Of a DNA stretch of 64,000 nt, positions 18,832 to 62,937 are shown piece after piece; positions within the stretch are counted from its first letter, which is position 1, and every line of letters starts with the position of its first letter. The DNA is taken from contig NC_134027.1 of NCBI RefSeq assembly GCF_964204645.1, positions 17,942,560 through 18,006,559 on the forward strand, in the 5' to 3' direction. The notes under the pieces were generated by a model. It saw only the letters and a program-made list of their open reading frames with translations, was not told the DNA's origin and ran no database searches. Source of the DNA: Tubulanus polymorphus (Eukaryota; Animalia; Nemertea). The position numbers and the translations under genes were made by a program.

Positions 18832-18878
18832 TTAACGAGTTGAAGAAAATATCAATTTTAATAAAAAATGACTAATAA

Positions 18879-20862: not shown

Positions 20863-20910
20863 TTATTAGTCATTTTTTTATTAAAATTGATATTTTCTTC
20901 AACTCGTTAA

Positions 20911-21204
20911 TTACTCGGTACTTTTTATATCATTTAACTCATTATTCATATTTCTAATATGAGTTTTAGATTTTAAATGTTCTTTATGATATTTTTTTTC
21001 ACTGAATGATTGATTACATGTATCACATTTATATATTTCTTTTTCATTCTTTAATTCTTCTAATTTAGTTTCTAATATATCATCTTTATATTCTGATTTC
21101 AATTTATTTTCTAAATGTGTTTTAGTTTTATTATGTCTTGCTTTTTGAGATTTATCTATATTAATTTTACATGTCAGGCAGTAGTACTTCTTATTTGTTT
21201 CCAT
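20911..21204 (-). CDS. Inverted second copy of the two-zinc-finger protein
   Basis: 97 aa, differs from 18538-18831 at about five residues. Confidence 0.75.
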   Translation of the reverse strand: METNKKYYCLTCKINIDKSQKARHNKTKTHLENKLKSEYKDDILETKLEELKNEKEIYKCDTCNQSFSEKKYHKEHLKSKTHIRNMNNELNDIKSTE

Positions 21205-21289
21205 TTTAATTACTAATTTTTTATTAAAATTGATATTTTCTTCAACTCGTTAATTACTCGTTACTTTTATGTTAAAATCAAGAATTTAG

Positions 21290-28164: not shown

Positions 28165-28518
28165 ATGGAGAGTAAACAAGCGCACAGTGAGAACAACAAA
28201 TCATTTCTAGATAGAATAAAAGATACTTCAAATGTCAAATCAGTAGATTATAAATTTAAGAAGTTAAAAGAATTAATAATCCATAAGAAATATCTAATTA
28301 CAAATATTGATACAGTTACTAACAAATATGGAGATAAATTAGTTATACACTTAGAATATGAAGGATTAAAAGGAAATACAAATAAATTCAGAACATATTT
28401 ACCAGATAGATTTCATAGATTATCAAGTGAAGATCTAGAAGAATTATGTTCTGGAGATTTCTATTTCGTATACAAAGGTAAGAATGAAAAAGGGCACCAT
28501 GAAATAGATTTCGAATAA
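28165..28518 (+). CDS. Polinton hypothetical protein (KYG..FLP..YxGKNExGHH family)
   Basis: Intact 117 aa with TAAATG start; homologous to 54065-54390 (minus). Confidence 0.7.
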   Translation: MESKQAHSENNKSFLDRIKDTSNVKSVDYKFKKLKELIIHKKYLITNIDTVTNKYGDKLVIHLEYEGLKGNTNKFRTYLPDRFHRLSSEDLEELCSGDFYFVYKGKNEKGHHEIDFE

Positions 28519-37995: not shown

Positions 37996-39294
37996 GTCGA
38001 ATTCGAAAGTGGTTGTCGTCGTATTGTTATTTCTAGAGACCAGCAGTATGTTTTGCTACTGTTTCTGAATGGCCTTGACATGATGGAAATATATTACTCC
38101 TAAATAGGTTACACATCTGGATCACAGCACCTCACTTGCCGCAGTGCGTAATTTTGACTGCATAGTAATGCTAATACATAAACTTTTTTACTACTTGACT
38201 CAAAGCTTGACGCGAATCATCTGAACAGTACTGCGTTTGAAAACGAATAGAAAATGTTTGCGAGAAGCACCTGCAAATAAGTTATGATAAGATTAAATCT
38301 ATGGTTAATCGATGCTTAAAAAAACAATTAAATCACAGGCAAGATGACTAACAACCGTCTTTCAACCAATCAGCGCGATGCCAATTAATTAAATCATTAA
38401 ACGCATTAGGCTCCTTATATTTGTAATCATTTGTCGTTCTTTAAACTTGGCCACTTTTGTTTCAGAAAACCGCGTACTAGACCAGTGGTCACCAAGGCAT
38501 TAAAAAAGTTTTGAAAATTCGATGGTAACGATTTGTCCGTCAAAAAACTGTTTCGTTAATATTTCAAGTTTTTTTAAACTCTTGTACAGAATTCACTATA
38601 TGAAAAGTGTTCATAGGAATTGAAATTCGGTGTGATATCAGTCACCTGTTACCCCTTTTTCATTGTCAGTTCTTTATTGCACTATCATGCGCTCTTCTAA
38701 AATAGAAAAGAACATGTGTGTTTCGTTATAAACAAGGTTAGATTCCAAACGCACATGAAATATCACACAATATACACATCTAGCATTTTCTCTAACTAGG
38801 CCCTTTCCAAATGGCAATTGTTTAGTTTTTTAACGGCCGACATTCAGAAGCACCTAAAAACCAGTGCTAGCGCTTGAGATTTTCAGTGTAGGTCACATCT
38901 CACATCGACTCGGCTCGCAGTCGGTTCGTTTAATGGGAACACATCTGGTTGACACTAGTTTCACAGTTGACGAAATCAGAAAACTTTTTTCAAATGCCTT
39001 TGATAACATCTTAAACATAGTATTCTTCTTGATTACATTTCGTTGATTCCATAGATATGTTTTTATGAAAATTGCTCCAGTTATAACGGATTCAAACATA
39101 CATGTGAAATCAATATTTTCAAAATATTCAATTTTCTCCGCTTTTGAAGAAATTCTGACACAATATCATCTCCACTCGACACATGATTTTACTTCGGCGC
39201 CTTTAAGGGAGTGTCCCTTAAAGTTGAGTTCTTACTTAGTCAAACAAGGAGATATGCCTGATTCCTTTTTAAAATTTAGATTTCGACAGATATC

Positions 39295-39670
39295 AGTAAT
39301 TGGGAAAGTGGGCTTTCATACGAGAGGACGAGACACCACTCATCACCACAAGTAATAATTCAATTGAGTATGAGACACCACTCATCACAGCTAGGCTCTA
39401 GTGAGAACGGACGATTGCTCTGTGGTACACATATACAGTGAGTGCGCGTAACAACAGCTGCGCGTGGATAGATCGATACAGTGAGTCTCTACTGAGAACG
39501 GTTATTAACGCGTGTGCTATTACTGTAGTACAGTGATTGCGTGTCAACTGTGCCCAGATAAATAGATGCTGTGAGGCTTGGGTGAGAACGGTTAATAGCG
39601 TGTTTGTTATATACAGGGGGAAGTAATCCCCACTCATCACCACAAGTAATTTTTGTTCCTAATAAATGGG
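39295..39670 (+). repeat. Left TIR region (interrupted)
   Basis: 39295-39357 and 39630-39670 both match the reverse complement of parts of 54385-54475. Confidence 0.85.
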
Positions 39671-42600
39671 GGAGAATGAACAGCAGCCAGAAAACAATAA
39701 TGTTAATAAAACCAATATTATTGCCAATATTGTAAAAAAATACGTCGATACATCTAATAAAACACGACATGAAAAAACTGCAAATCATATAAAAAATGTA
39801 ATAGATTTTGAAACTCCAGAAAATTCCAATGAAAGAAAAGAAAGATTAGAAAATATGAATGTGGACGAAATAAAATGTGAAGTTTGTAATGAATTTAAAG
39901 TAAAAAGGAATTATAATATAATCTCGAATCACAAAAACACCATCAAAATTTGAGTAATAATGTTTTAGGAAAAGATTATTTCGATGATAAACCTCAAAAA
40001 GTAAAAAAACCAACTTCAAAAACTAAATCCATTTCAAATAAACCTTACATGGAAAATGTTAGAAATTATATTGATACACTAGAAATAAAAGATACAATTG
40101 AAATTTTAGAAACATTACATAGTAAAATTGGTCCTGCAGCTATCATATTTAGATTTTTTAAAGGTACAACAATAGAAGATTATAGTATATTTAATGAAAT
40201 AATAAAAAAATACTAGATTTGATAACAGATGTTGAATATCCAAAAATTAGTATCTCTGGGAAAGTAAGTTTTATAAAGTCAGAAGAAAAAATGGATTATA
40301 ATATTCAAACACACTCTGAAGAAATAATTTGAAAAACACAAATAAAAGAGAAATTAGAAAAAATATTTAATGAATTTAAACGTCATATTGAAGAAAGATA
40401 TTTTGAGGGTTCTGGCTTAACATTGAATGAAATTATATATTTAGATTTAAATGTTTACAATACAAAAAGGAATAAAACATCAAAAAGTAATAAAATGTTT
40501 AAAAATGATTCAAAATTTACAACAGAAAAGGATATTAAAGCATCATCTTATATTAAATTACCATTTACAACAAAAGCAGTAATAAATGTTCAAAATGAAG
40601 ATAATAAATGTTTTCTTTGGTCAATTATTAGTTGTTTACACCCAACAGAAGATATGACGCATAGTTTTAGAATAACAAATTACCGGAAATATGAAACATT
40701 ATATAAAATTGATCAATATCCAGTAACTATAAAAATGATTCCTAAAATAGAAAAAGTTAATAATTTAAAAATAAATGTATTTGAATTAATGCAATTACCA
40801 AAGACAAAAGGTGAAAATATTAAAAATCATACATTGAAAGCTTTATATTTAACAGAATATTATGATGATGAAAATGCTATAGATTTGTTATATTACAAAA
40901 AAGATGAAAATGAACATTATATGTGGTTAAAACAAATTGATTTATTCTTTAGAACAGAAAGTGATCATCATAAAATTTATCCATGTAGAAAATATTTATC
41001 TAAATTTATGACTGAGAATACATTATTAAAACATAAAGAATTATGTGATAATAAAGATTTTGTAAATTAATAATGCCAACAGAAAAAGATTATACATTGA
41101 AATTTACAAATCATAAATTTAAGAATATTGTTCCATTTGTAATTTATGGGGATTTTGAATCGTTGAATAAAGAATTAACTGATCAAGATAGAAAAGAAAT
41201 ATATAACAAAAAGCAATTATTAAAATCAATGGATAAAGGAAATGAATTAAATGAAGACACAACACAAGACCCGCCAATTATAAATACAATTAAAAAAGTT
41301 CATCAAAGAGCTGCTGCTTATGGAATTTATATAAAATCAAATTATCCCGAATTATATGAAAGTCAATATATTTCTTTTAGAGGTGAAGGTGTAGTTAATG
41401 ATTTTTGTAACAAATTGATTGAATTAGAAAGTGATTTTGCAAAATTATTAAACAAAAATAAAAGAATATTTATGACAATAGAAGATGAAATTGATTTTAA
41501 TTATGCAACTCATTGTTGTTATTGTGAAAAACGTTTTTATTCATTTGATAAAAAAGTTAGAGATCATGATCATTTAAATTCAAAATATCGTGGAGCTGCT
41601 CATGAAGATTGCAATTTACAAGCTAAGAAAGTTAATTTCGTACCAATATTATTTCATAATTTATCAGGCTATGATACCCATCTATTTATAAAAAAATTAT
41701 CGGGAAAATTGGGCGCAATTAATCAAGAAATAGAAAAATATAATGCTATGAATGGTGTAAATGTAAGAAAATATGATTTTAAACTATTAGCTAAAACATC
41801 TGAAAATTATATTTCATTTCAATTTGGTTGCATTAGATTTTTAGATTCTTATAGATTTCTAGCAAGTTCAGTAGATAATTTATCAAAAAGTTTAGTTGAT
41901 AATGATTTTGTTATAACTCGATATTATTATCCAAATGAACAAGATTTTAAATTATTGAGATATAAAGGCGCAATTCCTTATTCATTTTATAAAACACAAT
42001 GATTTTAATGTAACAGAATTATTAAAAGATCAATTTTATGATCAATTAAAAGAGGAGTATGTGAAAGACGAAGTGTTTAATAGAACATTAAATATTTGGA
42101 ACCATTTTAAGATGAAAAATCATGGTGAATTAGTTGATTTATATTTAAAATCAGATGTTATGATATTGGCTGACATATTTGAAAAATTTAGAGAAGTTAA
42201 TTTGAATCATTTTAATGTTGATCCTTGTTATTGCTACTCTAGTCCTGGTTTAACCTGGCAATGTGGTTTAAAATATACAAATGTAGAATTAGATTTATTG
42301 AAAGAACCAGATATGGTTTTATTATTTGAAAAATCAATTAGAGGTGGAATTAGTGGTGTTATGGGAGATAGATATTTTAAAGCAAATGATGAATATAAAT
42401 TATTATATATTGACGCCAATAATTTATATGGTTGGGCAATGATGCAACCTCAACCATATAAAAATTTTATATTAACAGAAGTTGAAAATGATGATAAAAC
42501 TAATTGGGAAAGCGCAATTACGAGTTTAGAAGATGAAGCACCAATTGGTTATTTCTTTGTAGTTGATTTAGAATATCCTGAAAATATAAAGTTTAAAACA

Positions 42601-44720
42601 AGAAACTTACCTTATTGCCCAGAACATTTAACTGTAGATGATAGTTATTTAAGTGAATACCAGAAGAAAATAAAACCGAAAGATCATGTTTTTACAGAAA
42701 AATTAATTCTTACTCAAAATAATAAATACAATTATATTGTTCATTATAGAATGTTAAAATTTTATCTAAAACAAGGAATGAAATTAAAGAAAGTACATAG
42801 ATATATTGAATTTAATCAATCGAAGTGGTTAGAAAAATATATAGATTTTAATACTCAACAGAGAACCATATCAAAAACAGATTTTGAAAAAGATTTCTTC
42901 AAATTAATGAACAATAGTTTTTATGGTAAAACATGTGAAAATATTAGAAATAGAAATGATATTGAATTAGTAAATAATTCTGAAAGATTAAGACATTTAC
43001 AATCAAGTCCTAGACATTTAGGAAATAAAAGATTTGAAGATTATTTAACAGCAGTTAAATTGAAAAGAACGTCAATGAAATTTAATAAACCTACATTCAT
43101 TGGTTCAACTGTTTTAGAAGTATCAAAATTATTAATGTATGATTTTTATTATAATGTTTTACAACCACTTTTTGGGGAAAAGCATATTGAAACATTATAT
43201 TTTGATTCTGTAACAGCTGACACCCCAATATTATTAAAATGTAATGATAAAATATTGATAAGAAGAATTTCAGAAATAATTCCAAAACAAAATGAATGTT
43301 TATTTCATATGGTGAAAAAGAATTAATACAAATAAATGGATTAATGGATGTTTGGACAAGAAATGGATGGAAAAAATTAAAGAATATTATTAGGCATAAA
43401 ACAAATAAGAAAATCTATAGAGTTAGAACTAAATTAAGGTTTGTAGATGTTACAGAAGATCATAGTTTAATTAAACGAAATGGCGATGAAATAAAACCAA
43501 CTGATATAAAAATTGGAGATGAATTATTACATAAAAGATTTTTCCAAAGAATGAATCATATGTCATTTGATGAAATTATTGATAATATTTATAATATAGA
43601 ACCCGAAACATTAGAAGAAAAAGAATATTTTATCAAAGGATTTTTCATGGGTGATAGTTCAGCAGGTGTGTATGTTTGGGGTAATAAATATTGTTGGTAT
43701 TTATGCAATCAAGACTTAAAATTATTAGAAAGAATTAAGAAATTCTGTGAAGAAGTTTATCCAAATAAAACATTTAAAATCATGGATGTTATGAAATCAA
43801 CAGCAGTTTATAGAATACTTGTAAATAATCCTAAAGATTTTGCTATAAAATATAATGACGAATTCTATATTCATGCAATAGTGAAAAGTAATACTTCAAC
43901 TAAAGAAAAGATAGTTCCAGATTATGTATTGAATGCAAAAAATAATTTAAGAAAATGGTTCTTCATTGGATTCTACGCAGCAGATGGTACTAAAAGTTTC
44001 AAAAATCGCAAAACAATATCTTTAGCTCAAAAAGGAAAAGTTGCTATATCAGGATTGAATATATTATGCAATTCATTAGGTTTTAATATGAATATTGGAT
44101 TGATTAAATCTAAACCAAATTGCTTTAATTTAAGCCATGTAGAAAATGAGTTAACAGAAGAAGTTAAAGATTTATTTGAAATATATAACCCAACAGATTA
44201 TGTTTATGATTTATCAACTGAAGATGGTACATTTAACTGTGGATTTCCATTAATAGCCAAAAATACTGACGCCTACATACTAAAAATCAAGACAAATGAC
44301 ATAACAAAAGACTTAAAAACATTAAAACATCATTTTGATTTTAGCAATTATCCCAAAGATCATGAACTATTTAGCGATGATAATAAAAAGATTCCTGGTA
44401 AGTTTAAAGATGAATTAGGGGGTGATGAAATGATTGAATTTGTTGGGATAAGAAGTAAAATGTATAGTTATAGAACAAAAGATCATGAAGATATAAAGTT
44501 AAAAGGAATAACAAAACATGTGGTTGATAAACATATAGAATTTCAAGATTATATAAAGTGTTTATATAACTCAATTGTAATGAAACACAAAATGAATTGT
44601 TTAAGATCAGAAGATCACGAGATGTACATTAATGAAGTTGAAAAAACTAGTTTGAATCCATTCGATGATAAAAGGCATATTTTAGATGATGGTATAAAAA
44701 CATTACCTTATGGCCATTAA
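39666..44720 (+). pseudogene. polB: pPolB, intein-containing allele
   Basis: N-terminal Zn fingers, NEDNKCFLW..HYMW, IYGDFES, RDHDH, FHNLSGYD, YIDANNLYGWAM, KLMNNSFYGKT, YFD|intein|TDA, DDKR; several stops and frameshifts. Confidence 0.95.
43207..44264 (+). mobile_element. Intein with LAGLIDADG homing endonuclease in pPolB motif C
   Basis: Block A SVTADTPILL; block B VDVTEDHSL; GFFMGD and GFYAADG; block F YVYDLSTEDGTF; end LIAKN then +1 Thr; absent from copy 1; 1058 nt with one frameshift near 43296. Confidence 0.95.
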
Positions 44721-46048
44721 AACATAAAATCAATATCATCATACTCGAAATCACTATTGGCTTCTTCATTTAAATTTAATTGTTCTTGTATAATTTGTTT
44801 AGGTTCTTCTTCCATTTCATTTTTCTTATTTAAATAACGTGTTATATTGTGCCACATTTCATCTCGCTCTCTTTGTTTCTTTTTGTTTGTTAATTCATCA
44901 AATGGAATTATAATATCTATATTTAAATAATTTACAATCTTATTTAAAAAGAATTCATAATTAATTGAATCTGTTATTCTATTTTCCAAATGATACATTA
45001 ATATTTGTTTGAATATTTTTTTTATATTTTCCATATCTTCTTCTGTTAATTTAGGTTTTTCATAATAATCGTTAAATAATAAATATAAATACATTTTCTT
45101 TTGTTTTGTGTTAAATGTTGATGGAATAATTGTTTTTATAATATCTTTTTTAGTTATTTCACCATTTTTATTTTCTACCATTTTCATTTTTTCAAGCCAT
45201 TGCATATATTCTGGTGTATGATCTTCTATAGAAAATATTTCAAAAATTTCATCTAGATAATTTAATTTTGGATCTATGAGAAAATTTCTAGTTTTTTCTT
45301 CACCCCATAAATTCTTTCGCCATCCACAATCAACACAAAATAACACAGTACCTTCTTGTCTTAAGGTCGCGTAATTACATTGTGGGCATTTTTGTTTATA
45401 ATTTATTGGTAATAGATCTTCATTAAGCTCTTGGTATTTTCATACGTTTTCTTTATGTTTTATTATTCTATTATGTAGATTTGAATTACTTGTTGTAATA
45501 ATCAATTTACAATATTTACAATAATATGTTTTTCTTGTTAATTCATTATATTGTTTTTCTAACTTTTCAACTGTTTCTTTATTATCTGGTAACGTTTTCT
45601 CATATTTTATTTTTTCTAATATATTATTTTTTCTTTCATTGAATTCAGTTTCAAATTTATTAGAAATTTTATCTATATGTGCTTTACGAAATTGATGATT
45701 CTCCCAATCTTCTATATTTTCAGGGCTATATTTTATTCGACAAGGCTTACAGAAATGATCTTTTATATTATCCTTATCATAGAATAAGAAAGGTCTTTTC
45801 CAAATAACATCAGGTTCAACTTCCACAGAATTACTATTACTTTCGTTACTATCAACATTAGCCGTTGCGCCATTAATTTTACACTTCTCTGAATGTTTTT
45901 TAACATAATTTCTTGAGAATAATTTATTACATTTTGGACAGTTTAGTTTAGGGGGTTTATAATTTTCATCATGTTTTTTCATATGTCGAGCCATATTACT
46001 TTTTCTCAGAAGTTCACCACAAATTTCGCATGGTATCTTCTCATCCAT
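44717..46048 (-). pseudogene. Multi-zinc-finger protein fused to a poxvirus VLTF3-like late transcription factor domain
   Basis: ORFs 45440-46048 and 44717-45346 are in frame across one TGA; four Zn-finger motifs, then CPQC..CVDCG, then SINYEFFLNKI..KKKQRERDEMWHNI. Confidence 0.7.
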
Positions 46049-46116
46049 TTATTAAGGAAAAATTTTATTAAAATTAATTTTTAGTGATGAGCGGTAATTT
46101 TTTTATGTTATAAATA

Positions 46117-46874
46117 ATGGTAGAATTAAAAGAATACAGAATATTTGTAGATTCTAGAAAACTTACAAATTATAAATCTCATAATTTACTAGAACAATTA
46201 GATAGAGAATTTAAAAATTGTGTAGATTTAAAATTAGTTAATATAAGTTTATGTAATTCTTTTTATAATATAACGGATAAAACTATTGAAGATAATACTT
46301 TTTTAATTCATATTGGAAATGTAGATAAATGGTTTCATATAATTTTAAAACCAGGATTATATAATTTAGAAACATTAGCTCAAGAAATTAATCGAAGAGC
46401 ACGGTTGAAAATTAGAAGAGATGATAAATTTTTAATTAGATTTATAAAAAGTGATAGCACAAATAAAATTAAAATACAGGTATATGATGAAAGTCAACAT
46501 GCATTTATGGTAAAAAAACCATTAGCTAAATTGCTAGGATTTGCACCAGATACTGTTATAGGAAACGTAGATGGTAATTCAAATATAATACCTTTTACGC
46601 ACTTTTATATTTTTTGCAATTTAATCGATCCTACAAAAACATTTGAAGGAACTAAAGATACAATTTGTAATTCTAGTATATTAAATATTTTACCGCTAAA
46701 AAATGTTAAAAAATTTGGACTGGAATAAATTATAATTTAACAGAATGTGATTTTAAACCATGCATTCCTGAATTTAATAATTTTAGATTAGAAATAAGAA
46801 ATCACAATGGATATTTAATTGATTTGAATAACTTTCCTGTGATATATGAATTAGTTTTAAGATGTAGAGAGTAA
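46117..46874 (+). pseudogene. Minor capsid protein (penton), frameshifted
   Basis: Homologue of 28536-29294; frameshift near 46720. Confidence 0.7.
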
Positions 46875-46906
46875 TTTTTTCATTATATAACTGTTGGGCC
46901 GAGCAT

Positions 46907-47236
46907 ATGTTTGGATTTGATTTTAAACGTGAGAAAGAAATGAAAATTAACATTAATGATGTAATTACACATATCAAAAATATTACATTTTCTAATGAAA
47001 CATCATTTGAGTATGAAACAACAATAGATAAAGAAACTTTAAATGTAGAAAAGATTACTAATAAAATAAAGATTAGAGAATCTTTATTTTATGAATTAGA
47101 TGAAGATTTTATCATCGATGATATTAAAAAAATAATAATTGAAATATATACAAATGAAACTAGTAATGAAATAAATGTTGAATTAATCATCACTAAGATA
47201 ACTAAATATTTTGAAGATAGTAATTTTTTTGATTAA
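46907..47236 (+). CDS. Polinton hypothetical protein
   Basis: Homologue of 29311; native start deleted. Confidence 0.55.
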   Translation: MFGFDFKREKEMKININDVITHIKNITFSNETSFEYETTIDKETLNVEKITNKIKIRESLFYELDEDFIIDDIKKIIIEIYTNETSNEINVELIITKITKYFEDSNFFD

Positions 47237-47239
47237 TAA

Positions 47240-47440
47240 ATGAGTGATAATAAGTGGATAATAACTGGATTATATAATGGCGCCTTACTATCAGTTGGAA
47301 CTGTTGGTTATTCAATGGTATTAAAAAAAGTATTTAAAATGGGAAGTGTTAATGTTGATAGATTTGATATAAATGAAATTTTCAAAATTAACATTAGCAG
47401 TTACTTTATCTAATTTAACTATTGATTATTTGGATATAAA
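47240..47440 (+). pseudogene. Small hydrophobic Polinton protein
   Basis: Homologue of 29664-29885 with a frameshift and 3' deletion. Confidence 0.65.
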
Positions 47441-47463
47441 TACATAATTATTTTACTAAATAA

Positions 47464-47880
47464 ATGGCTTCTGCAGTTATAACTATTATAGGATCGGCAA
47501 TTGTTAACGCTTTAGCATTTACTGGTGGTGGTTATTTATTCAAGCATATTGATGGTTCATTAACAGAACAAAAAAGACATAACTTAGCATTAGAGAAATA
47601 TAATAAAGCAGCAGAAGAATGTAGAGAAAAGAGACAAAACTATATGGATTACATCAATAAAGAATTATATGACCAGAAGATTTCACATAGAGATTTTCAA
47701 TCAGTTGATGATGCAATGAGTTTATATAACGCGGTAACCAAGAATGAAAAATCACATCTATACAAACCTAAATTATCAGATTATTATACCCCAAGTAAAG
47801 AACAACAGAAATATGAAATAATGTGGATTTTAGGTGGAACTGTTATTGTTATATTTGTAGCGTATAAGTTTACTAATTAG
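47464..47880 (+). CDS. Polinton membrane protein (NALAFTGG)
   Basis: Intact homologue of 29910. Confidence 0.75.
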   Translation: MASAVITIIGSAIVNALAFTGGGYLFKHIDGSLTEQKRHNLALEKYNKAAEECREKRQNYMDYINKELYDQKISHRDFQSVDDAMSLYNAVTKNEKSHLYKPKLSDYYTPSKEQQKYEIMWILGGTVIVIFVAYKFTN

Positions 47881-47900
47881 TAATTTTTTTTGCTAAATAA

Positions 47901-48293
47901 ATGGATGATAATATTGATATTATTCCTCATGGTATAAATAAAACTAAATTAAAAATATATTTAGAAAAACAAATATTAGAATTTGAAAGTGACTTAAAGA
48001 TAAAAAGGAAAAAATATTTAAAAAGTAAAATTATATATTATTTGATTATTAGTGGTTCGGTTACAATTAGTTCTGTAATAACATTTCTAGCAATATTTTC
48101 ACCATTAACACCTTTGGCTATATCAATTGGTGTGTTAGGATTAAGTTCAAGTGTTTTAACTGGTATAAGTCCAAAATTAAATATAAAAAGTAATAAAGAA
48201 AAAATTAAAACTAATATAAAAGAAATTAATAAATTAAAGAATACACTAGATTATATAATAAGTTTAAATGGTCATATAACAGTTGAAGAATAA
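47901..48293 (+). CDS. Polinton two-TM protein
   Basis: Homologue of 30353; CAA>TAA near the end. Confidence 0.7.
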   Translation: MDDNIDIIPHGINKTKLKIYLEKQILEFESDLKIKRKKYLKSKIIYYLIISGSVTISSVITFLAIFSPLTPLAISIGVLGLSSSVLTGISPKLNIKSNKEKIKTNIKEINKLKNTLDYIISLNGHITVEE

Positions 48294-48353
48294 GATAAAT
48301 TATTAAAAGAATTAATAAATTATTTATTTTTTTATTTTTTTTTTTTTTTATAA

Positions 48354-49649
48354 ATGGTAGATAGTTTTCCAAAAGCTTTCCAATATAATAAATCAATTAA
48401 ATATAATATTCCAGCAGTAGATTTTAATAAAGATATTTCATATAGAAATGAAGTTTTAAATTCATTAATTGATTTATATATTTATGTTACTGAAAGCAAT
48501 AATTTTCATGTTAAGATGGAAAATATATTCAATGTTTATGAAATTAATTTTAAAAATTTAAATGAGGCAAAACAATGGTTATTAAAATCTAATATGAAGT
48601 ATTGGCAGAACCAATTAAATTTTGCTGTTTATTGCGCTACAACAGGATGCGGAATAAGTTGGAATGATCATTTAAATAAACCAAGTTTACCATTGATGTT
48701 ATCACTTTTTAGATTTCATACATATTTTCAAATAAAATTAATATTAGATGAATTAGAATGTCCTTTACCAGGTTCAAAATTTTTCTAAGTTTTATAAAAT
48801 ATGTAATGAATTTAATATTAATTCAAATAAAGATTTTAGAGCAAAAATTGGAACAATGGGTGGATAAGGAATATTGTATACTAAAGAATTTCGAAAAATA
48901 ATGACAAATTCAGATATAAGAACACTAAATTGGAATGAATTACCAAAATATTATAATAATATACAACAACAAAACAATAATGGTTGGGTTAATTTCATTT
49001 TAGAAAATAGTGAAGGTTTTACTAAAGCTGGTATATAAAGAATAAATCAATCAATTAGAACTTATTTGATAGTATTTTAGGCGCGCAAGTTGAAACAAGA
49101 TCCCCAATAATTGGAAATGATAACACTTCATTCGATGCGCAGAAACAATTCAAAGTTTTATTTGAAGATTCCATTCATAATGATAAAAATAGATCGATTC
49201 CAGAAAACATTGTAAGATATCAAAATTATTTAGATAAATCACATATTAGATCAAATTATTGTATAGGCCCTAATCTATTTATTATTTCTAATGATTTAGT
49301 ATTAAAGATGGGAAACATAATTGGTTATAATAATCTAATTAAAACTGCAACAATAAATAATTCATTTGGATTAAATGATATAAATAAAAAGATTATCACT
49401 GCTCCAAAATTAATGGAAGGTGAAAAAAATAAAAAACATATTCAATCAACAGAAACTAAAACTAAGAATATTAAATTAAATAATGATTCTAAAATAAAAG
49501 ATTACAATACGACAGAAAATATTAAAACTGATAATATTCAACATGATATAATTAAAACTGATAATGATAATAAATTCCATGAAAATACTAAATTAGCTTT
49601 AACTTGTACAGGAATTGTTATAGGAGGAATATTATATTTTAAATTTTAA
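48354..49649 (+). pseudogene. Conserved Polinton protein (CATTGCG)
   Basis: Homologue of 30802-32190 with a deletion, stops and frameshifts. Confidence 0.75.
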
Positions 49650-49665
49650 TTTTTTTATTATATGA

Positions 49666-50259
49666 ATGAATGTAGAAGGTGGGGAAGATTATGAAATGGA
49701 AGGCATGGGAAATAATGATGATGCCAATACTAACGATGATGATTATATGACTGCTGATACTAATATTGATAATGATAATGATATAACATATAATTCTAAT
49801 TTAGCAGAAAGTGGTTCTAAAGCCCCATCAACTGAGGATTATATTAGAAGAACTAGATCGAGAATAAATCCTGAAAATGAAAATCAAGGTTTATCGAGTC
49901 GAGATTTAGAAAATAAAGAATTTGTATATAAGTTCCAACGTGCATTTGAAAGATCTGGATATAATATAAATTACAGAGGTGCCAGATTTTTAGTAGAAGA
50001 TTTAAAATATTTAGATGGTGAATATTATTATAAATTGAAAGATGATTATTATATTAATATCACTAATCAAAGGACAAGACTACCTAAAATATTAGCGGAA
50101 TCAACTTTGAGTGATTTAGGTCTAGATAAAATTAAGAGAATAAGTATTAGTAATGAAATAACTGATGTTACACAAGAGAGAGATAATAATATAAGAGTAT
50201 TTAGTCAAAGAATTGATGACTTATTTAAAATAATCGATGATAATCCAGAAACAGAAACA
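49666..50259 (+). pseudogene. N-terminus of a large acidic/coiled-coil Polinton protein
   Basis: Homologous to 59270-59787; ends at a deletion junction. Confidence 0.7.
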
Positions 50260-51020
50260 ACTTTGAATTGATAAATAATAATGCGCCTTTATATAAATAT
50301 CCAATTCAAGAAGATATTATATTTGAAATAACATTTGCTCCTGTTAATGAAATTGTATTATCTAGCGTTGTTAAAGATATGGGTTATAAATTATCGATTG
50401 TATGTTTAGAATATGACACAGTAACTGATGAAAATATTGCTAGCACAATTCAAACTCAATACAATCAAGGATTTTCATTATTATATGATTATATTGATAA
50501 ATTTAAAACTGTAACTATTAATGCAAATGATGAAATAATTAATGAGAATATTAACTTCCCAAGAAGATCTATTAAAGGTATATTAATATTTTTTACCATT
50601 GCAACATATTCTAATGGTGCAATAAAGGTAGATAATTATTATAATCCTGAAATAACAAAAGTAGAAATAACTATCGAAGGAATAGCAAATAAAATATTTT
50701 GTCAAGGAATGAGAATGATAGATCAGTGGCCAGAAATTAGAAAACATTTTATGAATGAAAAAGTAAAATCATTTGAAAATTGTAATATTAATCAAATTGA
50801 TTATTATACCGGCAATAAATATGCATTATGGTTAGATTTTAGAACAACAGAGGATAATTCATTACATGGTTCTGGGAAAAAACTACAGAACACTAAAGAT
50901 GGAATACAATTATTTATGAAAAAGAAAAAAGTAAGCTTAAATTTTAAAGTGCACATTTATATTATATCTGACGCATAATTAAATATTGTAAATTCACAAT
51001 TAGATAGTATTCAATATTAG
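50260..51020 (+). pseudogene. Major capsid protein, C-terminal part
   Basis: Matches 61298-62060 of the copy 3 MCP. Confidence 0.75.
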
Positions 51021-51050
51021 AAATATAAAGTTAAAATTAACGATATATAA

Positions 51051-52184
51051 ATGGGTGGTAAAAAAACTCCTAATACTAAAGAACAATATTTAAGAAATTT
51101 ATATTACAACCCTGAGAGTTCGGTTGCTTATTCTTCTACTAAAAATATATGGCGTCAAGTAAAACAAGATAAATTAGATAAGATAATCCCACAAAATTTA
51201 GTTAAATATAAAGATATAAATGAATTTATATTAGAACAATCAACATACACAACACATAAAAAAAATTGTTAGAAAATATAAAACTCGTAAAACTATGGTA
51301 AGTTATGTAGATCAACAGTGGCAAGGAGATTTAATTGATATGAAAAATGTTAAGAAAGATAATGATGATTATTGGTGGATATTGAATATAATTGATATTT
51401 TTAGTCGTTATGTATTATGTTTCCCACTTTATAGAAAAGATGCTGTACAAACATCAAATGTTTTAAGAAAATTTCTTTCGGATGATAAACTAAAACCAGA
51501 AAAAATACAATTTGATGATGGAAAAGAGTTTGATAATTCACTTGTTCATGAACTCTTAGATAATCATAATATTAAATATTTTTCAACAAAATCGGATAAA
51601 AAGCAGCAGTTGTTGAACGATTTAATAGAACATTAAGAACAAGAATGTGGAAATATTTTACAGCAAATAGTACTTTTAAATGGATTGATGTTTTACCAAA
51701 ATTGATAAAAGGTTATGATAATTCTTATCATTCTTCTATTGGAATGAAACCTATTGATGCTATAAAACCTGAAAATGCTGAAATTGTTTGGAATAATTTG
51801 TATGGGGCATTTCTTGTAGATGATTTTGGTGAACCTAAATTTAAAGTTGGTCAAAATGTTAGAATTTCTAAGTATAAAAAGATATTTGACAAAGGATACG
51901 ATCGAAATTTTACTAGAGAAATATATAAAATAAAAAAGGTTATAACAACAAAACCGTATGTCTATAAATTAGAAGATTTAGATGGTGAAGAAGTTGATGG
52001 CTACTTTTACGAAGAAGTATTGAGTTTAACTACTGAAAATCTAGAACATAAAATTGAATATAAAATTGAAAAAGTATTAAAAACAAAAATTATTAAAAGA
52101 AAATAATATTCTTTAGTAAAATGGGTTGGATGGCCAGATAAATTTAATGAATGGATATTATCAAGTAAAATTAAAAATATATAA
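51051..52184 (+). pseudogene. Retroviral-like (RVE) integrase with C-terminal chromodomain
   Basis: WQGDLIDM, IDIFSRY, DDGKEF, VERFNRT, YHSSIGMKP, FKVGQNVRI, LVKWVGWPDKFNEW; two frameshifts and one stop. Confidence 0.93.
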
Positions 52185-52793
52185 ATGAATAAGGAATTAT
52201 TCGTATTTGAGCCTCATAATATGTTAATTTCTGGTGTAACAAATTGTGGAAAACCTTATTTTATATTAAATTTATTAGAAACTGTTTATGAAAACTATTT
52301 TGATAATATAGTATTATTTTGTCCAACATATGAATTTAATCAAACTTATGATAGAAATATTACTAGAAATAATAAATTTATTATATTAGATCCTAAAACA
52401 GTAAAAGAAAATTTAGATAATTGTATTAAAATAGCGATTGATATTTATAAAGGATCAAATACATTATTCATTATAGATGATTGTGCTAATCTACATGATT
52501 CAAAAGTTAGAGAGAGTGAGTTATGCTATTTAGCTTTTTCTGGCAGACATTTTGGGATAACAACATGGGTTTTAAATCAAAAATATAATTCAATTGTTAA
52601 AGACTTTAGAGAAAACATTAGATTTCTAGTTTTATTCTACAATAAAGATAGAAAATCGATGAAAAATGCACTTGAGGAAAATGATATTATTCCACATGAT
52701 TTACATAATGAATATATGGATAAGTTGAAAAATATTAAAAGATCAAAATTACTATTTAGATTACAACACCCATTTAAATATGAATTTATTTAA
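52185..52793 (+). CDS. A32-like DNA packaging ATPase
   Basis: Walker A GVTNCGKP (GKT in copy 3), Walker B FIIDD, SGRH motif. Confidence 0.9.
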   Translation: MNKELFVFEPHNMLISGVTNCGKPYFILNLLETVYENYFDNIVLFCPTYEFNQTYDRNITRNNKFIILDPKTVKENLDNCIKIAIDIYKGSNTLFIIDDCANLHDSKVRESELCYLAFSGRHFGITTWVLNQKYNSIVKDFRENIRFLVLFYNKDRKSMKNALEENDIIPHDLHNEYMDKLKNIKRSKLLFRLQHPFKYEFI

Positions 52794-52976
52794 ATTCAAC
52801 TAGCTTGTTAATCTAGTTGAATTCTAGTTACATTCTAGTTGAATTCTAGTTATTAGTAGTTGAAACAAAAATCAAATAGATTTAACAAGAAATAAACAAA
52901 AACAACAATATTTCAACTAGCTTGTTAATCTAGTTGAATTCTAGCCCTAGTTACATTCTAGTTGAATTCTAGTTGC
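52794..52976. repeat. Intergenic CTAGTTGAATT / CTAGTTACATT repeats in two duplicated blocks
   Basis: TTCAACTAGCTTGTTAATCTAGTTGAATTCTAG at ~52795 and ~52912. Confidence 0.85.
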
Positions 52977-53006
52977 AACATCACAACTAATTTTTTTGTT
53001 ATATAA

Positions 53007-53520
53007 ATGGTAGGTGAAAAGAAAATAAAATCTAAAAATGGTGATGTTCCAATTGAAAAAAACTTTAGATGATATAGGAATAACAGAAAACAAATTAATT
53101 CCAGATGATGGTGCTTTAAATAATGTTACAACAAATAATAATTATGAATATTATCTTTACTGTAAACATCAATTAGAAATATTAATAGCATCTGGAAAAT
53201 GTAACAATTTTGTCGGTAAAAATTTAACTTATAATGAATTAGATACAATGAAATCAGATGAAATTATTAGATTATTTAAGATTCATGAAGCCGCGAGAAC
53301 AGCTAGAATTAATGACGCGATATCAGAAAATGTAGTAAAAGGTTATAGTAAATTATGTAATTATATACTACCAATTGAAGATGAAAATAGATTATATTCC
53401 GATTTAAAAAATGATTATTTAGTTATGACTGAATTAAATAAATGGATTGGATATTTATCATTTCAATTAGGTGGATTTATGACATTATTATCAACTGGGT
53501 TATAACATTTTCAAATATTG
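53007..53520 (+). pseudogene. Polinton hypothetical protein
   Basis: TAAATG start at 53007, frameshift into ORF 53038-53505. Confidence 0.6.
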
Positions 53521-53544
53521 AAAGTAAAAATATTTCTATAATAA

Positions 53545-53913
53545 ATGAGCGAGGTGGAAGAAGTGAAGGAATTAACTGTGAAGAAAAAACCGAGATCACA
53601 GAAACAAATTGAATGGTCTCGGCAATTAGGAAGTAAATCACAAGAATATAAAAAAGCTGTAAAAGAAAAAATAAGTAATAAAAATGTTAATAAAAATAGT
53701 GAAAATATTGTTATTTCTACTCCTTCTAATGATAGAATATTTGATAAATGTCTATATTTTACAGTTGGATTTGTAATTGTATTCATTTTGATTGGGTGTA
53801 ATTGGTATAAGAAATCAAATAAAATTCATGATATTAATAATTCTGAAACAACTGCTATCAAAAATGAAAATAATTCTGAAATTCCAAAATTGACAATTAA
53901 AAAAATGGATTAA
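53545..53913 (+). CDS. Polinton single-TM protein
   Basis: 122 aa, basic N-terminus, one hydrophobic helix, TAAATG start. Confidence 0.65.
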   Translation: MSEVEEVKELTVKKKPRSQKQIEWSRQLGSKSQEYKKAVKEKISNKNVNKNSENIVISTPSNDRIFDKCLYFTVGFVIVFILIGCNWYKKSNKIHDINNSETTAIKNENNSEIPKLTIKKMD

Positions 53914-54064
53914 TATTTTAGAAAAAAAGCAAAAAAAAATAATTTTTTCTAATTAATTGAATATCTCACTACTTTTGTCTATCTATGCGGAGCAATTAAA
54001 TTGTCCAGATAAGTCATTTCGGATTCTAGATATTCATTATTTTTATTAATTTATTTTTTTAAAT

Positions 54065-54390
54065 TTAATCAACAATTTCTAAATCATGATGGCCATCTTC
54101 ATTTTTTCCATGGTAGATTATTTTAAATCCTTCTAAATCTTTTAATTCCTCTGTACTCAATGAAACCCATTTATCAGGTAAAAATACTTTAAATTCTCGT
54201 GATGTACTAACATTACAGTAGCTTAAATTAGCTGATACTTTCTCTCCATATTTAGTTTTTATCTTTTCTAATTTCAATATTTTATGTTCAATTTCTTTTG
54301 TAACATCAACTAACTTTTTTATTTCAAATTGTTTTTTGCTGGTTTTATTCTGTTATTTATTGTTGCAAAGAATGCTTTTCTATCTCCCAT
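54065..54390 (-). pseudogene. Homologue of the 28165 protein, starting at the right TIR
   Basis: KTKYGEKV..FLPD..YHGKNEDGHH; ATG at 54390 in TAAATG, disrupted near the 5' end. Confidence 0.7.
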
Positions 54391-54475
54391 TTATAAGGAA
54401 AACAAATTACTTGTGGTGATGAGTGGTGTCTAGTCCTCTCGTCCTCTGGTATGAAAGCCCACTTTCCCAATTACT
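54385..54475 (-). repeat. Right TIR of Polinton copy 2
   Basis: Reverse complement of the left end; ends in ACT. Confidence 0.92.
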
Positions 54476-54939
54476 GATATCATCAAATTACTAGAAAGGG
54501 ACAGCAGCGTTCGGTCATCCACGAAAAATACCTAAAATGCAGTCCTAGGGTTATGGAAAAACAGGACACGAAACATACAGAAAAATCCTTTGTTTGGTTG
54601 ACTGAAATTATTATTGAACTCTTAAATAGCGACATTCAGAGAAACAAAAACATAAGAATATAATCTCGCCCACCCGTTAAAAAACATGACGTAATGATAG
54701 GAGGCCATGTGTCATCTTTAATTGAAATCACATTATATTCATTCTCATGCGAGGATGGGTCTCCAAATTCATAGGATTAGGAGAATAATGGTTTGAATGA
54801 TGAATACAACTGATAAAGCGCCAATTTCACTGATTCTTGCATATAAATGCTCAAAGGCGCTTTACAGTAATCGAGTTAACAGGTGCGTTTTTAGGAGTCT
54901 TTTAAATTTGAATTCAAATCGGGTGTTCATGACGACTAT

Positions 54940-59269: not shown

Positions 59270-60787
59270 TAACAGAAAACCCTAATGAAACTAATATTGA
59301 TGAGGATAATTCATCAGCATATAATTCTAATTTAGCAGATAGTGGTTCCAAAACCCAATCAACAGAGGAATATGATAGAAAAACTAGATCGAAAATAGAT
59401 CCTGAAAATGAAAATCCAAATTTAGTAAAAAAAAAATTAGAATATAATGAATATATTTATAAATTCAAACCTGTATTTGAAAGATCTGGGTATAATATAA
59501 GTGATAGAGATGCTGAACTTTTAGTAGAAAATTTAAAACTTAAGGTAAATATTATTATCATTTGGATGGTGATTATTATATTGATATCACTATTCAAAGA
59601 ACAAGACTAAATAAAATATTAGCGGAATCAACTTTGAAAAATTTAGAAACATTTAGAATTAAGAGAATAAGTAACAAGAAATGAAATAACTGATGTTACA
59701 CAAGAAGAAAGAGATGATAATATAACAGAATTTAATGAAAGAATTGATGACTTATTAAAAATAATCAATAAAAATTCAGAAACAGAAATGGAAGAGTATA
59801 GAGATCGATTAGATAAATCAAGATCTTCAACACCAGAAACATCGAGAAGAGATATTCAACAAATCGATAATGATTCAAGTCAATTACAATTAGTAAAACA
59901 TTTTGATAGCATGTTAGATACAGTTCATTCATTTGAAGAAGAGATGAATAGTGTTTTAGATACACCCGGTGCTGAAAATGGAATAAATCGAATACAATCT
60001 TTACTAGAAAAAGGATTATTTGATTTAACTGATGATGAATTAGAAGCATTTCCTGAACAAACACGTAGAGAAATTAAAGGTATGCAAGAATCAGCTGATT
60101 AAATTGCGCATGAAAAAAGTAAAAGAGATATTAAAATTAGAACTTTAGAAAAAGAATTAACTGATAAAAATAAAGAAATAAAACAACTAAAATTAGATAG
60201 AGATAATAAAGTTATTGAAGAAATCGAATTTAAAAAAAGAAATGCGTATTTAGAAAAAGAAAAAGATGATTTAGAATATAACATAGAATTACAAAAAGAA
60301 GAAATGAAATCATTATTAAAATCATATGATTATAATATTAATAGATTAAAAGTTATTTTTACAGATTTGTTGATAAAACCAGATTCTAAAATATCATTGA
60401 AAGATAGAATAAAGTTATTATTTAAATTAGAAGGAATAACAATTCTTTCAATTCTAACAGCTGTAACTATGTTATTTACAACAATTGGTTTAGCAATATC
60501 AAATGCTTTGAAATCTACTCCTACTCCAAATAAACCAGATAAACCCCCAGATAATAATTCTATACAAGATAAAGTTAAGGATGGTTTAAAGAAATTAGCA
60601 AAATATTTATGGGAACTATCTAAAAAATCTGCTGCAGCATTACCAGGAATTATTGCATCAATTGTTGGTTTTTATATTGAAATCTGCAGGAAACATTATT
60701 TACTTTGCTGCGGAACATATTATTTTATTTCTAATTACAGTTGTAAGTGCAATTATTTTTGGGTTAGTAAACATGATAGAAAATAAA
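59270..60787 (+). pseudogene. Large coiled-coil/TM Polinton protein
   Basis: ORFs 59242, 59788 and 60304 form one disrupted gene; EGITILSILTA..IG and AAALPGIIASIV hydrophobic segments. Confidence 0.7.
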
Positions 60788-60810: not shown

Positions 60811-62060
60811 ATGAGTGGGAGTTATATCAATCCTTCTAAGAATCATAGAATATCTAATGCTATTAAAGCAGAAAGATCACATCATATAATTACTCATAAC
60901 CCTTCTAATATTAATCCCGATGAAACTTTATATGTTAGAATCCCTCGATTAACACAAAATACTTTTTATGTTCCAAATAGTATTTATTTATCAGCCGATA
61001 TAAAAGTAACCGGTAATAATAATAATTATGTTGTTGATAATGTTGGAAGATATTTGATTAAAAAATTAACAATAAAGATTGGTCCAGAAACAGTTTTCTC
61101 ATTACATGATTATAATTTATTTATGCATTATAAAGATTTATGGTTAACTAAAGAAAATAGAAATTATACGATATTTCAAGGAATCCAATCAGAAAACCAA
61201 AATAAATTAAGATCAGAAACACATAATGCAATATTAACTAATTCTATAGATAAATTGATAAAAAGTATATATGGAAGCAAATATAAAATTCCATTAGACT
61301 TTGAATTGATAAATAATAATGCGCCTTTATATAAATACGCAATTCAAGAAGACGTTATATTCGAAATAACATTTGCTCCTGTCAATGAAATTGTAATATC
61401 TAGCGTTAATAAAGATATGGGTTATAAATTATCGAATATATGTTTAGAATATGATACAGTAACTGATGAAAATATTTCAAGTATAATTCAAACTAAATAA
61501 AATCAAGGATTTTCATTATTACATGATTATATTGATGAATTTAAAAACGTAACTATTAATGCAAATGATGAAATTATTAATGAGAATATTAACTTCCCAA
61601 GAAGATCTATTAAAGGTATATTAATATTTTTTACCATTGCAACATATACTAATGGCGCAATAAATGTTGATGATTATTATAATCCTGAAATAACAAAAGT
61701 AGAAATAACTATCGAAGGAATAGCAAATAAAATATTTTGTCAAGGAATGAGAATGATTGATCAATGGCCAGAAATTAGAAAACATTTTATGAATGAAAAA
61801 GTAAAATCATCTGAAAATTGTAATATTAATCAAATTGATTATTATACCGGTAATAAATATGCATTATGGTTAGATTTTAGAACAACAGAGGATAATTCAT
61901 TACATGGTTCTGGAAAAGAAACTACAGAACACTAAAGATGGAATACAATTATTCATGACAAAGAATAAAGGAATCAAAAATTTTAAAATGCACATTTATA
62001 TTATATCTGACACGCAATTAAATATTATAAATTCTCAATTAAATAGTGTTATGTATTTAA
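60811..62060 (+). pseudogene. Major capsid protein (double jelly-roll), putative
   Basis: HNPSNINP.ETLYVRIPRL, VVDNVGR, YKDLW, IPLDFE, LEYD, NFPRRSIKGIL, ALWLDFR..LHGSG; about 410 codons; TAC>TAA at 61498 and a late frameshift. Confidence 0.75.
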
Positions 62061-62091
62061 ATTTTAACTTTAATAAAAATTTATATAATAA

Positions 62092-62937
62092 ATGGAAGGA
62101 GGTAAAGTATATAAACATATTCCATACATCGATACAAATGAAAATAATGATGGTTTATATTATGTAATACCTTGTAATATTGCTTTGATATTTGATCCCA
62201 TTTTCAAAATTTATAAAACTAAACTAATAGAAATCGATAATAATAAAAGTGAAGTTGTTGATAATTTAAATAATGTAATACCTTCTACATCTAATAATGT
62301 AATACCTTCTACATCTAATAATGTAATACCTACTACATCTAATAATTTAATACCTACTACATCTAATAATGTAATACCTTCTACATCTAATAATGCAATA
62401 CCTTCTACATCTATTAATGCAATACCTTCTACATCTAATAATGCAATACCTTCTACATCAAATAATGAAATAATATTAAATATTAGCGAAAATAGAAATT
62501 ATTGTGATTATTGTAAAGGTGAATTTTCAAACGCTCCATCAAATTGGAATAAACATATGAATACAAAGGTACATATTACTAAGGTTATAGAACGTGTTGG
62601 TTTAAGAGAATTTATAGAACACCCATTTATATATGTTACAAAATTTGTTTCAAATAAAAAAGTAAATGGTAAAGAATTATATGAAGATTTAATATTAGCA
62701 ACGCCTAATAAAGATGAATTAGATTTAACCGATGCTAATAAAATATTAGGATCAAACACTGTAAATGAAATATTAGGAACAAACACTAATAAAGATGATA
62801 ATGAAAATATCGTTACAGATAAGCATATTGATAATAAAGATTCTATGAAACATAAAGTAGAAAATAATGATAATTTTGATTGGATGAATAAGCATAACAA
62901 TGAAACAACTATTGATGATGCGGTAAAAAAAGGGTGA
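62092..62937 (+). CDS. Hypothetical protein with (NNVIPSTS)x8 repeat and a Zn finger
   Basis: 24-bp tandem repeat 62269-62460; CDYC..H..H; TAAATG start. Confidence 0.7.
   Translation: MEGGKVYKHIPYIDTNENNDGLYYVIPCNIALIFDPIFKIYKTKLIEIDNNKSEVVDNLNNVIPSTSNNVIPSTSNNVIPTTSNNLIPTTSNNVIPSTSNNAIPSTSINAIPSTSNNAIPSTSNNEIILNISENRNYCDYCKGEFSNAPSNWNKHMNTKVHITKVIERVGLREFIEHPFIYVTKFVSNKKVNGKELYEDLILATPNKDELDLTDANKILGSNTVNEILGTNTNKDDNENIVTDKHIDNKDSMKHKVENNDNFDWMNKHNNETTIDDAVKKG

What the first reader, a model, noticed from the sequence alone, without database searches (positions are those of the whole stretch)
39295..54475. Candidate system: endogenous virophage-like Polinton dependent on an NCLDV of an invertebrate
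Three independent traits meet in one TIR/TSD-bounded element: a giant-virus-type intein (implies shared replication space), a VLTF3-like factor and pox-like initiators. The genes are also intronless, tightly packed and far more AT-rich than the flanks. Inference: an integrated hyperparasite that reactivates on helper infection, possibly protective as with mavirus in Cafeteria. This copy is decayed, so function would rest on intact relatives.
Basis: inference. Interest (0 to 1): 0.8.

Follow-up and report, generated by a model that had tools for sequence, protein, structure and literature searches.

The report
Homing intein spreading among animal Polintons
This is a broken copy of a multi-copy virus-like transposon (a Polinton), in what is probably an invertebrate genome, whose DNA polymerase gene is interrupted by a self-splicing protein insert of giant-virus ancestry that likely copies itself from Polinton to Polinton, while the idea that the element needs a helper virus rests only on poxvirus-like gene starts and is untested.

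Summary
The anatomy is confirmed: a 15.2-kb Polinton with terminal inverted repeats, a 6-bp target duplication and 24% GC. It has a LAGLIDADG intein in the polymerase active-site motif, a zinc-finger/VLTF3-like gene, and TAAATG at 11 of 13 gene starts. This copy is decayed.

The three traits do not point to one helper. Inteins from 14-15 Polinton polymerases form one clade among giant-virus-type inteins, yet are scattered over the polymerase tree. One related family has near-identical alleles with and without the intein that differ right at the site, as homing predicts. So the intein likely records one old contact, not present dependence. VLTF3 is already reported in Polintons, and a sister subfamily lacks it at this position. 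Giant-virus loci with related inteins do not use TAAATG starts (7 of 92).

The bipartite promoter is the only real hint of a helper. No helper virus, RNA data or sign of protection was found. I found no paper describing a Hint-type intein in Polintons. The scan noted pox-type Polinton promoters before, in another genome (unchecked), but not this intein.

The parts
39289..39294 (.). Left target-site duplication GATATC (palindromic)
   Evidence: empty-site reads
39295..39356 (+). Left terminal inverted repeat, outer part; an inner block at 39630-39673 carries the first promoter
   Evidence: 79 reads of run X6 skip the 274 nt between the two blocks
39666..44720 (+). Protein-primed family B DNA polymerase gene, in at least 7 reading-frame pieces
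   Evidence: tblastn with open-frame relatives P0319 and P0001; homologs with PF03175
43207..44264 (+). Intein with LAGLIDADG endonuclease in polymerase motif C (YFD|S...N|T); one frameshift near its start; first LAGLIDADG motif reads GDSS where relatives read [GA]DG[ST]
44717..46048 (-). C2H2 zinc-finger ORF (45440-46048) and Zn-ribbon/VLTF3-like ORF (44717-45439) in one frame, separated by a single stop; likely one gene
   Evidence: nearly all reads from other copies lack this stop
46117..46861 (+). Candidate minor capsid protein, broken (assignment from position and recall, not confirmed)
   Evidence: no significant Pfam or PDB hit
46868..47880 (+). Three small ORFs of unknown function (46868-47236, from 47240, 47464-47880)
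   Evidence: no significant family hit for the two scanned
47901..48293 (+). Two-transmembrane SLATT-like ORF (weak, below cut-off)
   Evidence: Pfam SLATT_fungal E 0.03; NCBIfam SLATT_4 E 3e-4
48354..49649 (+). Conserved ORF of unknown function, in pieces; also in the copy at 30.8-32.2 kb
49666..50978 (+). Start of a coiled-coil gene joined by a roughly 1.5-kb deletion to the second half of the double-jelly-roll major capsid gene
   Evidence: matches 59286-59788 and 61298-62095; the missing first half, seen at 60811-61497, scores 0.96-0.98 to clusters that include DJR capsid families
51051..52106 (+). rve integrase gene, in three reading-frame pieces
   Evidence: Pfam rve E 3.6e-11
52185..52793 (+). 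A32-like packaging ATPase
   Evidence: Pfam Pox_A32 E 4.2e-12
53007..53913 (+). Two ORFs of unknown function, each behind TAAATG
54065..54390 (-). Small ORF starting in the right terminal repeat; resembles by eye the ORF at 28165-28518
54383..54475 (-). Right terminal inverted repeat with embedded promoter
54476..54481 (.). Right target-site duplication GATATC

Best explanation
This is a decayed copy of a multi-copy Polinton family whose polymerase carries a LAGLIDADG intein that likely entered Polintons once from a giant-virus-type polymerase and has likely spread since by homing between Polinton copies. Shown: the element, the intein, one intein clade scattered over the polymerase tree, and alleles with and without it. 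Inferred: the intein splices out after translation and restores the catalytic DTD motif; its endonuclease cuts empty polymerase alleles; repair from an occupied copy copies the intein and some flanking codons. Many copies in one genome supply donors and targets, so no giant virus is needed today. All genes use one family-specific promoter (GTAA-W5, about 10 nt, TAAATG) that overlaps the start codon. This is probably read by virus-type initiation machinery, with the ZnF-VLTF3 protein as a likely factor that sister copies could borrow in trans. Whether the polymerase doing the reading is the host's or a helper's is open, at about even odds.
For: Intein tree: 15 Polinton rows form one clade among 270 rows (FastTree 1.0); 14 of 14 in an 82-row IQ-TREE quick tree (SH-aLRT 100, stem 0.52), sister (92) to a 23-row group that includes Mimiviridae ChoanoV1. 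Polymerase tree: 16 intein-bearing rows of 57 need 14 changes, no fewer than shuffles (278 of 500 as low); one clade is rejected (15 of 55 rows, p-AU 1e-100). The very distant polymerase P0007 carries the same intein clade. In cluster P0002, of 15 members listed (136 in all) 7 carry the intein, 4 clearly lack it and 4 were not scored by the motif. Occupied and empty alleles differ at 4 of 10 residues just upstream and 4-5 of 15 just downstream, but at 0 of the next 40 and 1-7 of the 450 beyond that upstream; the occupied flank resembles other occupied families. Both LAGLIDADG motifs are present in all 14 Polinton inteins examined. The intein-less copy at 24.4-28.1 kb has an unbroken YCDTDS.
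Against: A scattered pattern can also come from repeated precise loss. The altered flanks could be escape changes in the empty alleles. A second pair (P0141/P0144) has identical flanks and shows no conversion tract. The direction virus-to-Polinton rests on midpoint rooting, and the sister group changed between the two trees. Most viral relatives are unnamed. Splicing and cutting were not tested, and this copy's intein is broken. No intein-skipping joint appeared among the 15 of 101 joints shown for this subfamily. The host is inferred to be an animal from the kinds of transposons in the flanks and was not identified.
Confidence: 0.72

Rival explanations
1. Helper-dependent element: the genes are transcribed in the cytoplasm by the RNA polymerase of a poxvirus-like large DNA virus of this host, and integrated copies are induced on infection. 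This can be true together with intein homing.
For: TAAATG overlaps the start codon at 11 of 13 starts, with a T/A-rich core about 20 nt upstream. This matches the layout described for poxvirus late and intermediate promoters (PMC5294985, passages). No RNA polymerase gene was recognised in the element. AATAAA is not avoided in coding strands (53 against 52.3 expected in 12 kb). Polinton-like viruses occur with entomopoxviruses (PMC11296320, passages). An unchecked scan note (e1-8580207) reports the same promoter type in another animal.
Against: No helper was found. None of 70 viral loci matching the promoter had it more than once, and none had Polinton genes. Viruses with related inteins do not use the motif (7 of 92 starts). 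The poxviral early terminator T5NT is depleted no more than other T or A runs. The AATAAA test had no nuclear control.
Confidence: 0.38
2. Autonomous nuclear polintovirus: host RNA polymerase II is redirected to the family promoter by element-encoded factors such as the ZnF-VLTF3 protein, and no helper is needed.
For: Mriyaviruses keep VLTF3, lack RNA polymerase and are inferred to replicate in nuclei (PMC11253617, passages). The element has its own polymerase, integrase, ATPase and capsid. It is spread in many divergent copies. VLTF3 is reported in coral polintoviruses (PMC11131425).
Against: A fixed motif overlapping the start codon leaves almost no 5' UTR, which is unusual for Pol II (own knowledge). 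The sister subfamily has the promoter but no VLTF3 at this position. No maturation protease was recognised.
Confidence: 0.4
3. Protective endogenous virophage, as mavirus in Cafeteria: reactivation lowers the yield of a giant virus and benefits the host.
For: Analogy only; high copy number; a weak SLATT-like gene.
Against: No helper, no expression data and no fitness data. This copy lacks half of its capsid gene.
Confidence: 0.1
4. TAAATG is a by-product of AT-richness, stop-start coupling or polyadenylation signals of the upstream gene.
For: The element is 76% AT; 6 of the 11 motif starts contain AATAAA; one start (47240) directly follows a stop.
Against: The background is 7%. The motif also stands at three starts with no upstream gene on the same strand (39666, 46048, 54390), 5 of the 11 lack AATAAA, and the upstream core is at a fixed distance.
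Confidence: 0.1

Closest known systems
Polintons/Mavericks (Polintoviricetes; adintoviruses of Starrett et al., PMC8502044)
   Same: TIRs, 6-bp target duplication, protein-primed PolB, rve integrase, A32-like ATPase, double-jelly-roll capsid; VLTF3 in a subset (PMC11131425).
   Different: A canonical Hint/LAGLIDADG intein in the polymerase active site. The word intein does not occur in the main text of PMC8502044, PMC11131425, PMC11296320 or the nematode Polinton preprint 10.1101/2023.08.22.554363 (find). No adenain-type protease was recognised.
PolB motif-C inteins of giant viruses (Mimivirus; Mimiviridae ChoanoV1; GVMAG contigs L001, L002)
   Same: Same insertion point (D|S...N|TD), same SVTxDTP start, TEDHS block and two LAGLIDADG motifs; 38-39% identity to the two named ones.
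   Different: The host protein is a protein-primed polymerase of an integrated element; Polinton inteins form their own clade.
HNH and VSR nuclease inserts in Polinton pPolB (10.1101/2023.08.22.554363; read as possible intein invasions in PMC11071308)
   Same: A nuclease domain inside a Polinton polymerase.
   Different: Those passages describe nuclease domains only. This insert has splicing motifs at both ends, sits in the catalytic motif and is present or absent among near-identical alleles.
Entomopoxvirus-associated Polinton-like viruses (PMC11296320), mavirus, Gezel-14T
   Same: Small integrating dsDNA viruses with a polymerase/capsid module and no RNA polymerase.
   Different: Those were found with their helper. 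Here no helper is known. PMC11296320 has no occurrence of promoter, TAAAT, VLTF3 or intein in its main text.

Membership tests
Polinton/Maverick | Terminal inverted repeats and 6-bp target duplication | tested here: met
Polinton/Maverick | Protein-primed PolB and rve integrase | tested here: met
   (both broken in this copy)
Polinton/Maverick | Packaging ATPase and double-jelly-roll major capsid protein | tested here: met
   for the capsid (scored on the sister copy's first half; this copy keeps only the second half)
Adintovirus in the sense of Starrett et al. | Adenain cysteine protease | tested here: inconclusive
   none recognised in 23 ORFs by Pfam, nor in the NCBIfam and PHROGs scans; several ORFs remain unassigned
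Homing intein (Hint + LAGLIDADG) | In-frame insert with N-terminal Ser/Cys, TxxH block, C-terminal Asn and +1 Ser/Thr/Cys at a conserved site, absent in sister alleles | tested here: met
   penultimate residue is Lys here, as in the Mimivirus and ChoanoV1 inteins
Homing intein (Hint + LAGLIDADG) | Splicing and site-specific DNA cleavage | not testable with these tools
   this copy is frameshifted; open-frame relatives exist (P0001, P0002, P0007, P0013)
VLTF3 (PF04947) | Zn ribbon plus C-terminal helical domain | tested here: met
   hhalign 95%, E 3.9e-8; atlas 0.95
VLTF3 (PF04947) | Pfam score above cut-off and the RKNFLSY signature | tested here: not met
   no PF04947 hit at E 10; signature replaced; a remote homolog, activity unknown
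Virophage-like (helper-dependent) virus | Replication or expression only with a co-infecting large DNA virus | not testable with these tools
   needs infection or expression data
Virophage-like (helper-dependent) virus | Promoter shared with the helper virus | tested here: inconclusive
   poxvirus-like layout, not shared with intein-relative viruses (7 of 92) and no matching virus among 70 loci

The most novel reading that the evidence does not exclude
An animal genome holds a large family of endogenous Polintons that are hyperparasites of a poxvirus-like virus not yet seen in this host, transcribed from poxvirus-type promoters, and that are themselves parasitised by an actively homing intein: a three-tier parasite chain inherited through an animal germ line.
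Probability: 0.27. Interest if true: 0.87.

Novelty: new variant of a known kind. Interest (0 to 1): 0.6.

Why it matters
A 2018 survey placed eukaryotic inteins in fungi, algae, some protists and large DNA viruses (PMC5784728, passages); no animal group appeared in the passages I saw. A clade of endonuclease-bearing inteins living in Polinton polymerases, with occupied and empty alleles side by side, would show that homing can run among repeated elements in such genomes. It offers a natural system to measure gene conversion between Polinton copies. The promoter makes a long-standing question directly testable: whether animal Polintons are transcribed by the host or by a helper virus. One 5'-end mapping experiment would separate the two.

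Tried and rejected
No whole genome is held, so copies could not be searched in the assembly. Scans of viral contigs with the intein, capsid half, an unknown ORF and a related polymerase found no relative. The intein alignment found 5 viral loci and 9 metagenome loci; only L006 is Polinton-like and it holds the polymerase alone, so I could not test whether other intein-bearing Polintons carry VLTF3 or the promoter. No RNA holder listed; the one guessed RNA run laid nothing; neither is evidence on expression. Reads were laid on 39000-47900 only, so the right part of the element has no read evidence. A single-sequence fold of the VLTF3-like ORF was too poor to use (pLDDT 41). T5NT depletion first looked like a poxviral terminator signal (11 against 23) and was rejected as general avoidance of base runs, also seen in the giant-virus control. 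A mechanical start-calling rule gives only 6 of 19 TAA-ATG starts in this copy (5 of 9 and 2 of 5 in the other two), because broken genes create false starts. Of 120 polymerase hits, 59 lacked the intein, 4 had it and 57 could not be scored by the motif. Before the intein tree I dropped 11 near-duplicate Polinton proteins, and 52 of the 308 proteins then held gave no full intein; the careful tree did not finish, so the quick tree is used. Literature: 10 searches found no description of a Hint intein or of TAAATG promoters in Polintons. The 15 papers opened were seen as keyword passages only; no supplements were read, and these, Repbase entries and subscription journals could hold a prior note.
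Full report
Observation. The element occupies 39295-54475. Its ends are inverted repeats (98% over 45 nt, plus an inner block) flanked by GATATC on both sides. Because GATATC is palindromic it could belong to the repeat, but 489 reads of DNA run X6 pass from the left junction directly into the right-flank sequence, which shows empty sites with one copy. GC is 24.3% against 38.5% and 35.8% in the flanks. The genes are a protein-primed polymerase in at least 7 pieces, an rve integrase, an A32-like ATPase and the second half of a double-jelly-roll capsid gene; about 1.5 kb is missing relative to the copy at 59.3-62.1 kb. Run X6 covers 40.2-46.1 kb at about 165-370 reads deep from 1.9 Gb read, mostly at 90-99% identity, so this is a heterogeneous multi-copy family. 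The copy number cannot be calibrated without the genome size. Several of this copy's breaks are not shared by most reads; whether any single copy is whole is not shown. The host is probably an invertebrate, judged from the transposon remnants in the flanks (inference), and was not identified.

The intein. It spans 43207-44264 in the catalytic motif (YFD|SVT...KN|TDA) and is frameshifted near its start. Its best matches among 338 hits are other Polinton-type polymerases (62-41% identity; P0001-P0008, P0013, P0014, P0016); RNA-primed polymerases follow at 44% and below. In a 270-row tree all 15 Polinton rows form one clade (support 1.0). In an 82-row IQ-TREE quick tree the 14 rows do so again (SH-aLRT 100), next to a 23-row group that includes Mimiviridae ChoanoV1 and an intein 99% identical to GVMAG locus L001. 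The exact sister differed between the two trees and the root is a midpoint, so the donor is a likely, not a proven, protist giant virus. On the polymerase tree the intein is scattered: 16 of 57 rows need 14 changes, as many as shuffled labels, and a single clade is rejected (p-AU 1e-100). My rows were chosen to include intein-bearing proteins, so the share is not a prevalence. The window copy's nearest relative, P0318 (87% identity), is empty, as is the sister copy in this window. In the P0002 cluster, occupied and empty alleles are about 99% identical upstream but differ at 4 of 10 residues before and 4-5 of 15 after the site, and the occupied flank resembles other occupied families. This is what co-conversion during homing predicts. 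Escape changes in empty alleles or repeated precise loss are not excluded, and the pair P0141/P0144 has identical flanks. Both LAGLIDADG motifs are present in all 14 Polinton inteins examined, with one deviation in this copy. The intein therefore most likely records one old contact with a giant-virus-type polymerase, followed by spread among Polintons.

VLTF3. The ORF has no Pfam hit and no sequence homolog. The atlas and a profile of 77 viral VLTF3s (two members verified as PF04947) both support remote homology over the Zn ribbon and the C-terminal domain. It lies in frame with the upstream zinc-finger ORF, separated by one stop that nearly all reads of other copies lack, so the two are likely one gene. 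VLTF3 in polintoviruses is published (PMC11131425, passage) and occurs in about 30% of two PLV clusters (10.64898/2026.06.19.733378, passage). Mriyaviruses keep it without an RNA polymerase and are thought to be nuclear (PMC11253617, passages). The sister subfamily lacks it at this position but has the same promoters. It does not discriminate between helper and autonomy.

Promoters. TAA precedes ATG at 11 of 13 starts against 7% background, with a core GTAA-W5 about 20 nt upstream; 9 full matches in the window against 0.31 expected, all in the Polinton copies. Polyadenylation signals do not explain it, since three such starts have no upstream gene on their strand and 5 of 11 lack AATAAA. The layout matches that described for poxvirus late and intermediate promoters (PMC5294985, passages). 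AATAAA is not avoided in coding strands, and T5NT is avoided no more than other runs. Eight giant-virus-type loci with related inteins use TAA-ATG at 7 of 92 starts, and none of 70 viral loci matching the motif had it more than once or carried Polinton genes. So the intein's relatives and the promoter point to different virus groups, against the single-helper reading.

Mechanism. Shown: a Polinton family, an intein clade confined to Polintons in my sample, presence/absence among close alleles, and a family-wide initiator. Inferred: protein splicing restores the polymerase; the endonuclease cuts empty alleles and is copied in by repair (confidence 0.72). For transcription I give about 0.4 to host Pol II with element-encoded factors and about 0.38 to a poxvirus-like helper. 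Host protection gets 0.1, with no evidence either way.

Known and new. The element is a Polinton by every core feature tested; an adenain protease was not recognised. Helper-associated Polinton-like viruses of insects are known (PMC11296320, passages). Nuclease inserts in Polinton polymerases are known and were speculated to be intein remnants (10.1101/2023.08.22.554363; PMC11071308, passages). Ten searches found no report of a Hint/LAGLIDADG intein in Polintons or of TAAATG promoters in them. A 2018 survey lists eukaryotic inteins in fungi, algae, some protists and large viruses (PMC5784728, passages), and a 2023 study adds viral-like polymerases in algal and protist genomes (PMC10710043, passage). 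Also seen as keyword passages, with nothing decisive: PMC8502044, PMC12220804, PMC5718144, PMC3671162, 10.64898/2026.10.13.758929, 10.1101/2024.03.23.586382. No supplements were read. Scan notes on pox-type promoters (e1-8580207) and on Polinton-encoded TBP/TFIIB (e1-8145753, e1-9894833) concern other genomes and were not checked; the first agrees with the helper rival, the others with autonomy.

Verdict. Observation confirmed; interpretation partly supported. The best-supported new fact is a homing intein lineage in Polintons. Helper dependence is a live but untested hypothesis resting on the promoters. New variant of a known kind; interest 0.6.

Noticed in passing
window 24.1-32.3 kb (+): Truncated sister Polinton without the intein and without the ZnF-VLTF3 gene between polymerase and candidate minor capsid gene; 72-91% identical to the focal copy. 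329 reads of run X6 show its junction at 46116, so it is a common subfamily.
   Followed up: partly
window 59.2-64 kb: Third, rearranged piece with the capsid gene's first half, a coiled-coil gene, a repeat-rich ORF (62092-62937) where the focal copy has its integrase, and an ATPase on the opposite strand.
   Followed up: partly
window 18488-21254: Palindromic AT-rich piece with 964-nt arms (93% identical). Each arm has the polymerase's N-terminal zinc fingers and an unknown ORF of up to 157 aa behind ATAAATG. It resembles the palindromic Polinton satellites noted in e1-7857165.
   Followed up: no
window 39000-39294: The insertion site lies in a high-copy host repeat: depth about 740 in run X6, with 489 empty-site reads.
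   Followed up: partly
window 52795-52974: Short repeats built from TTCTAG/CTAGTT words between the ATPase and the next gene; function unknown.
   Followed up: no
proteins P0009, P0209, P0288: The same intein family sits, sometimes twice, in topoisomerase II-like proteins of unnamed origin.
   Followed up: no
protein P0325: A close Polinton polymerase relative (60% identity) is labelled Sulfurimonas sp. in UniRef; probably a binning contaminant.
   Followed up: no
window 12009-13391 and 21648-23642: Remnants of host transposons: YqaJ-like and HTH_Tnp_4 ORFs, and a GDSL-like ORF beside gag-like ORFs (the gag label is recalled).
   Followed up: no
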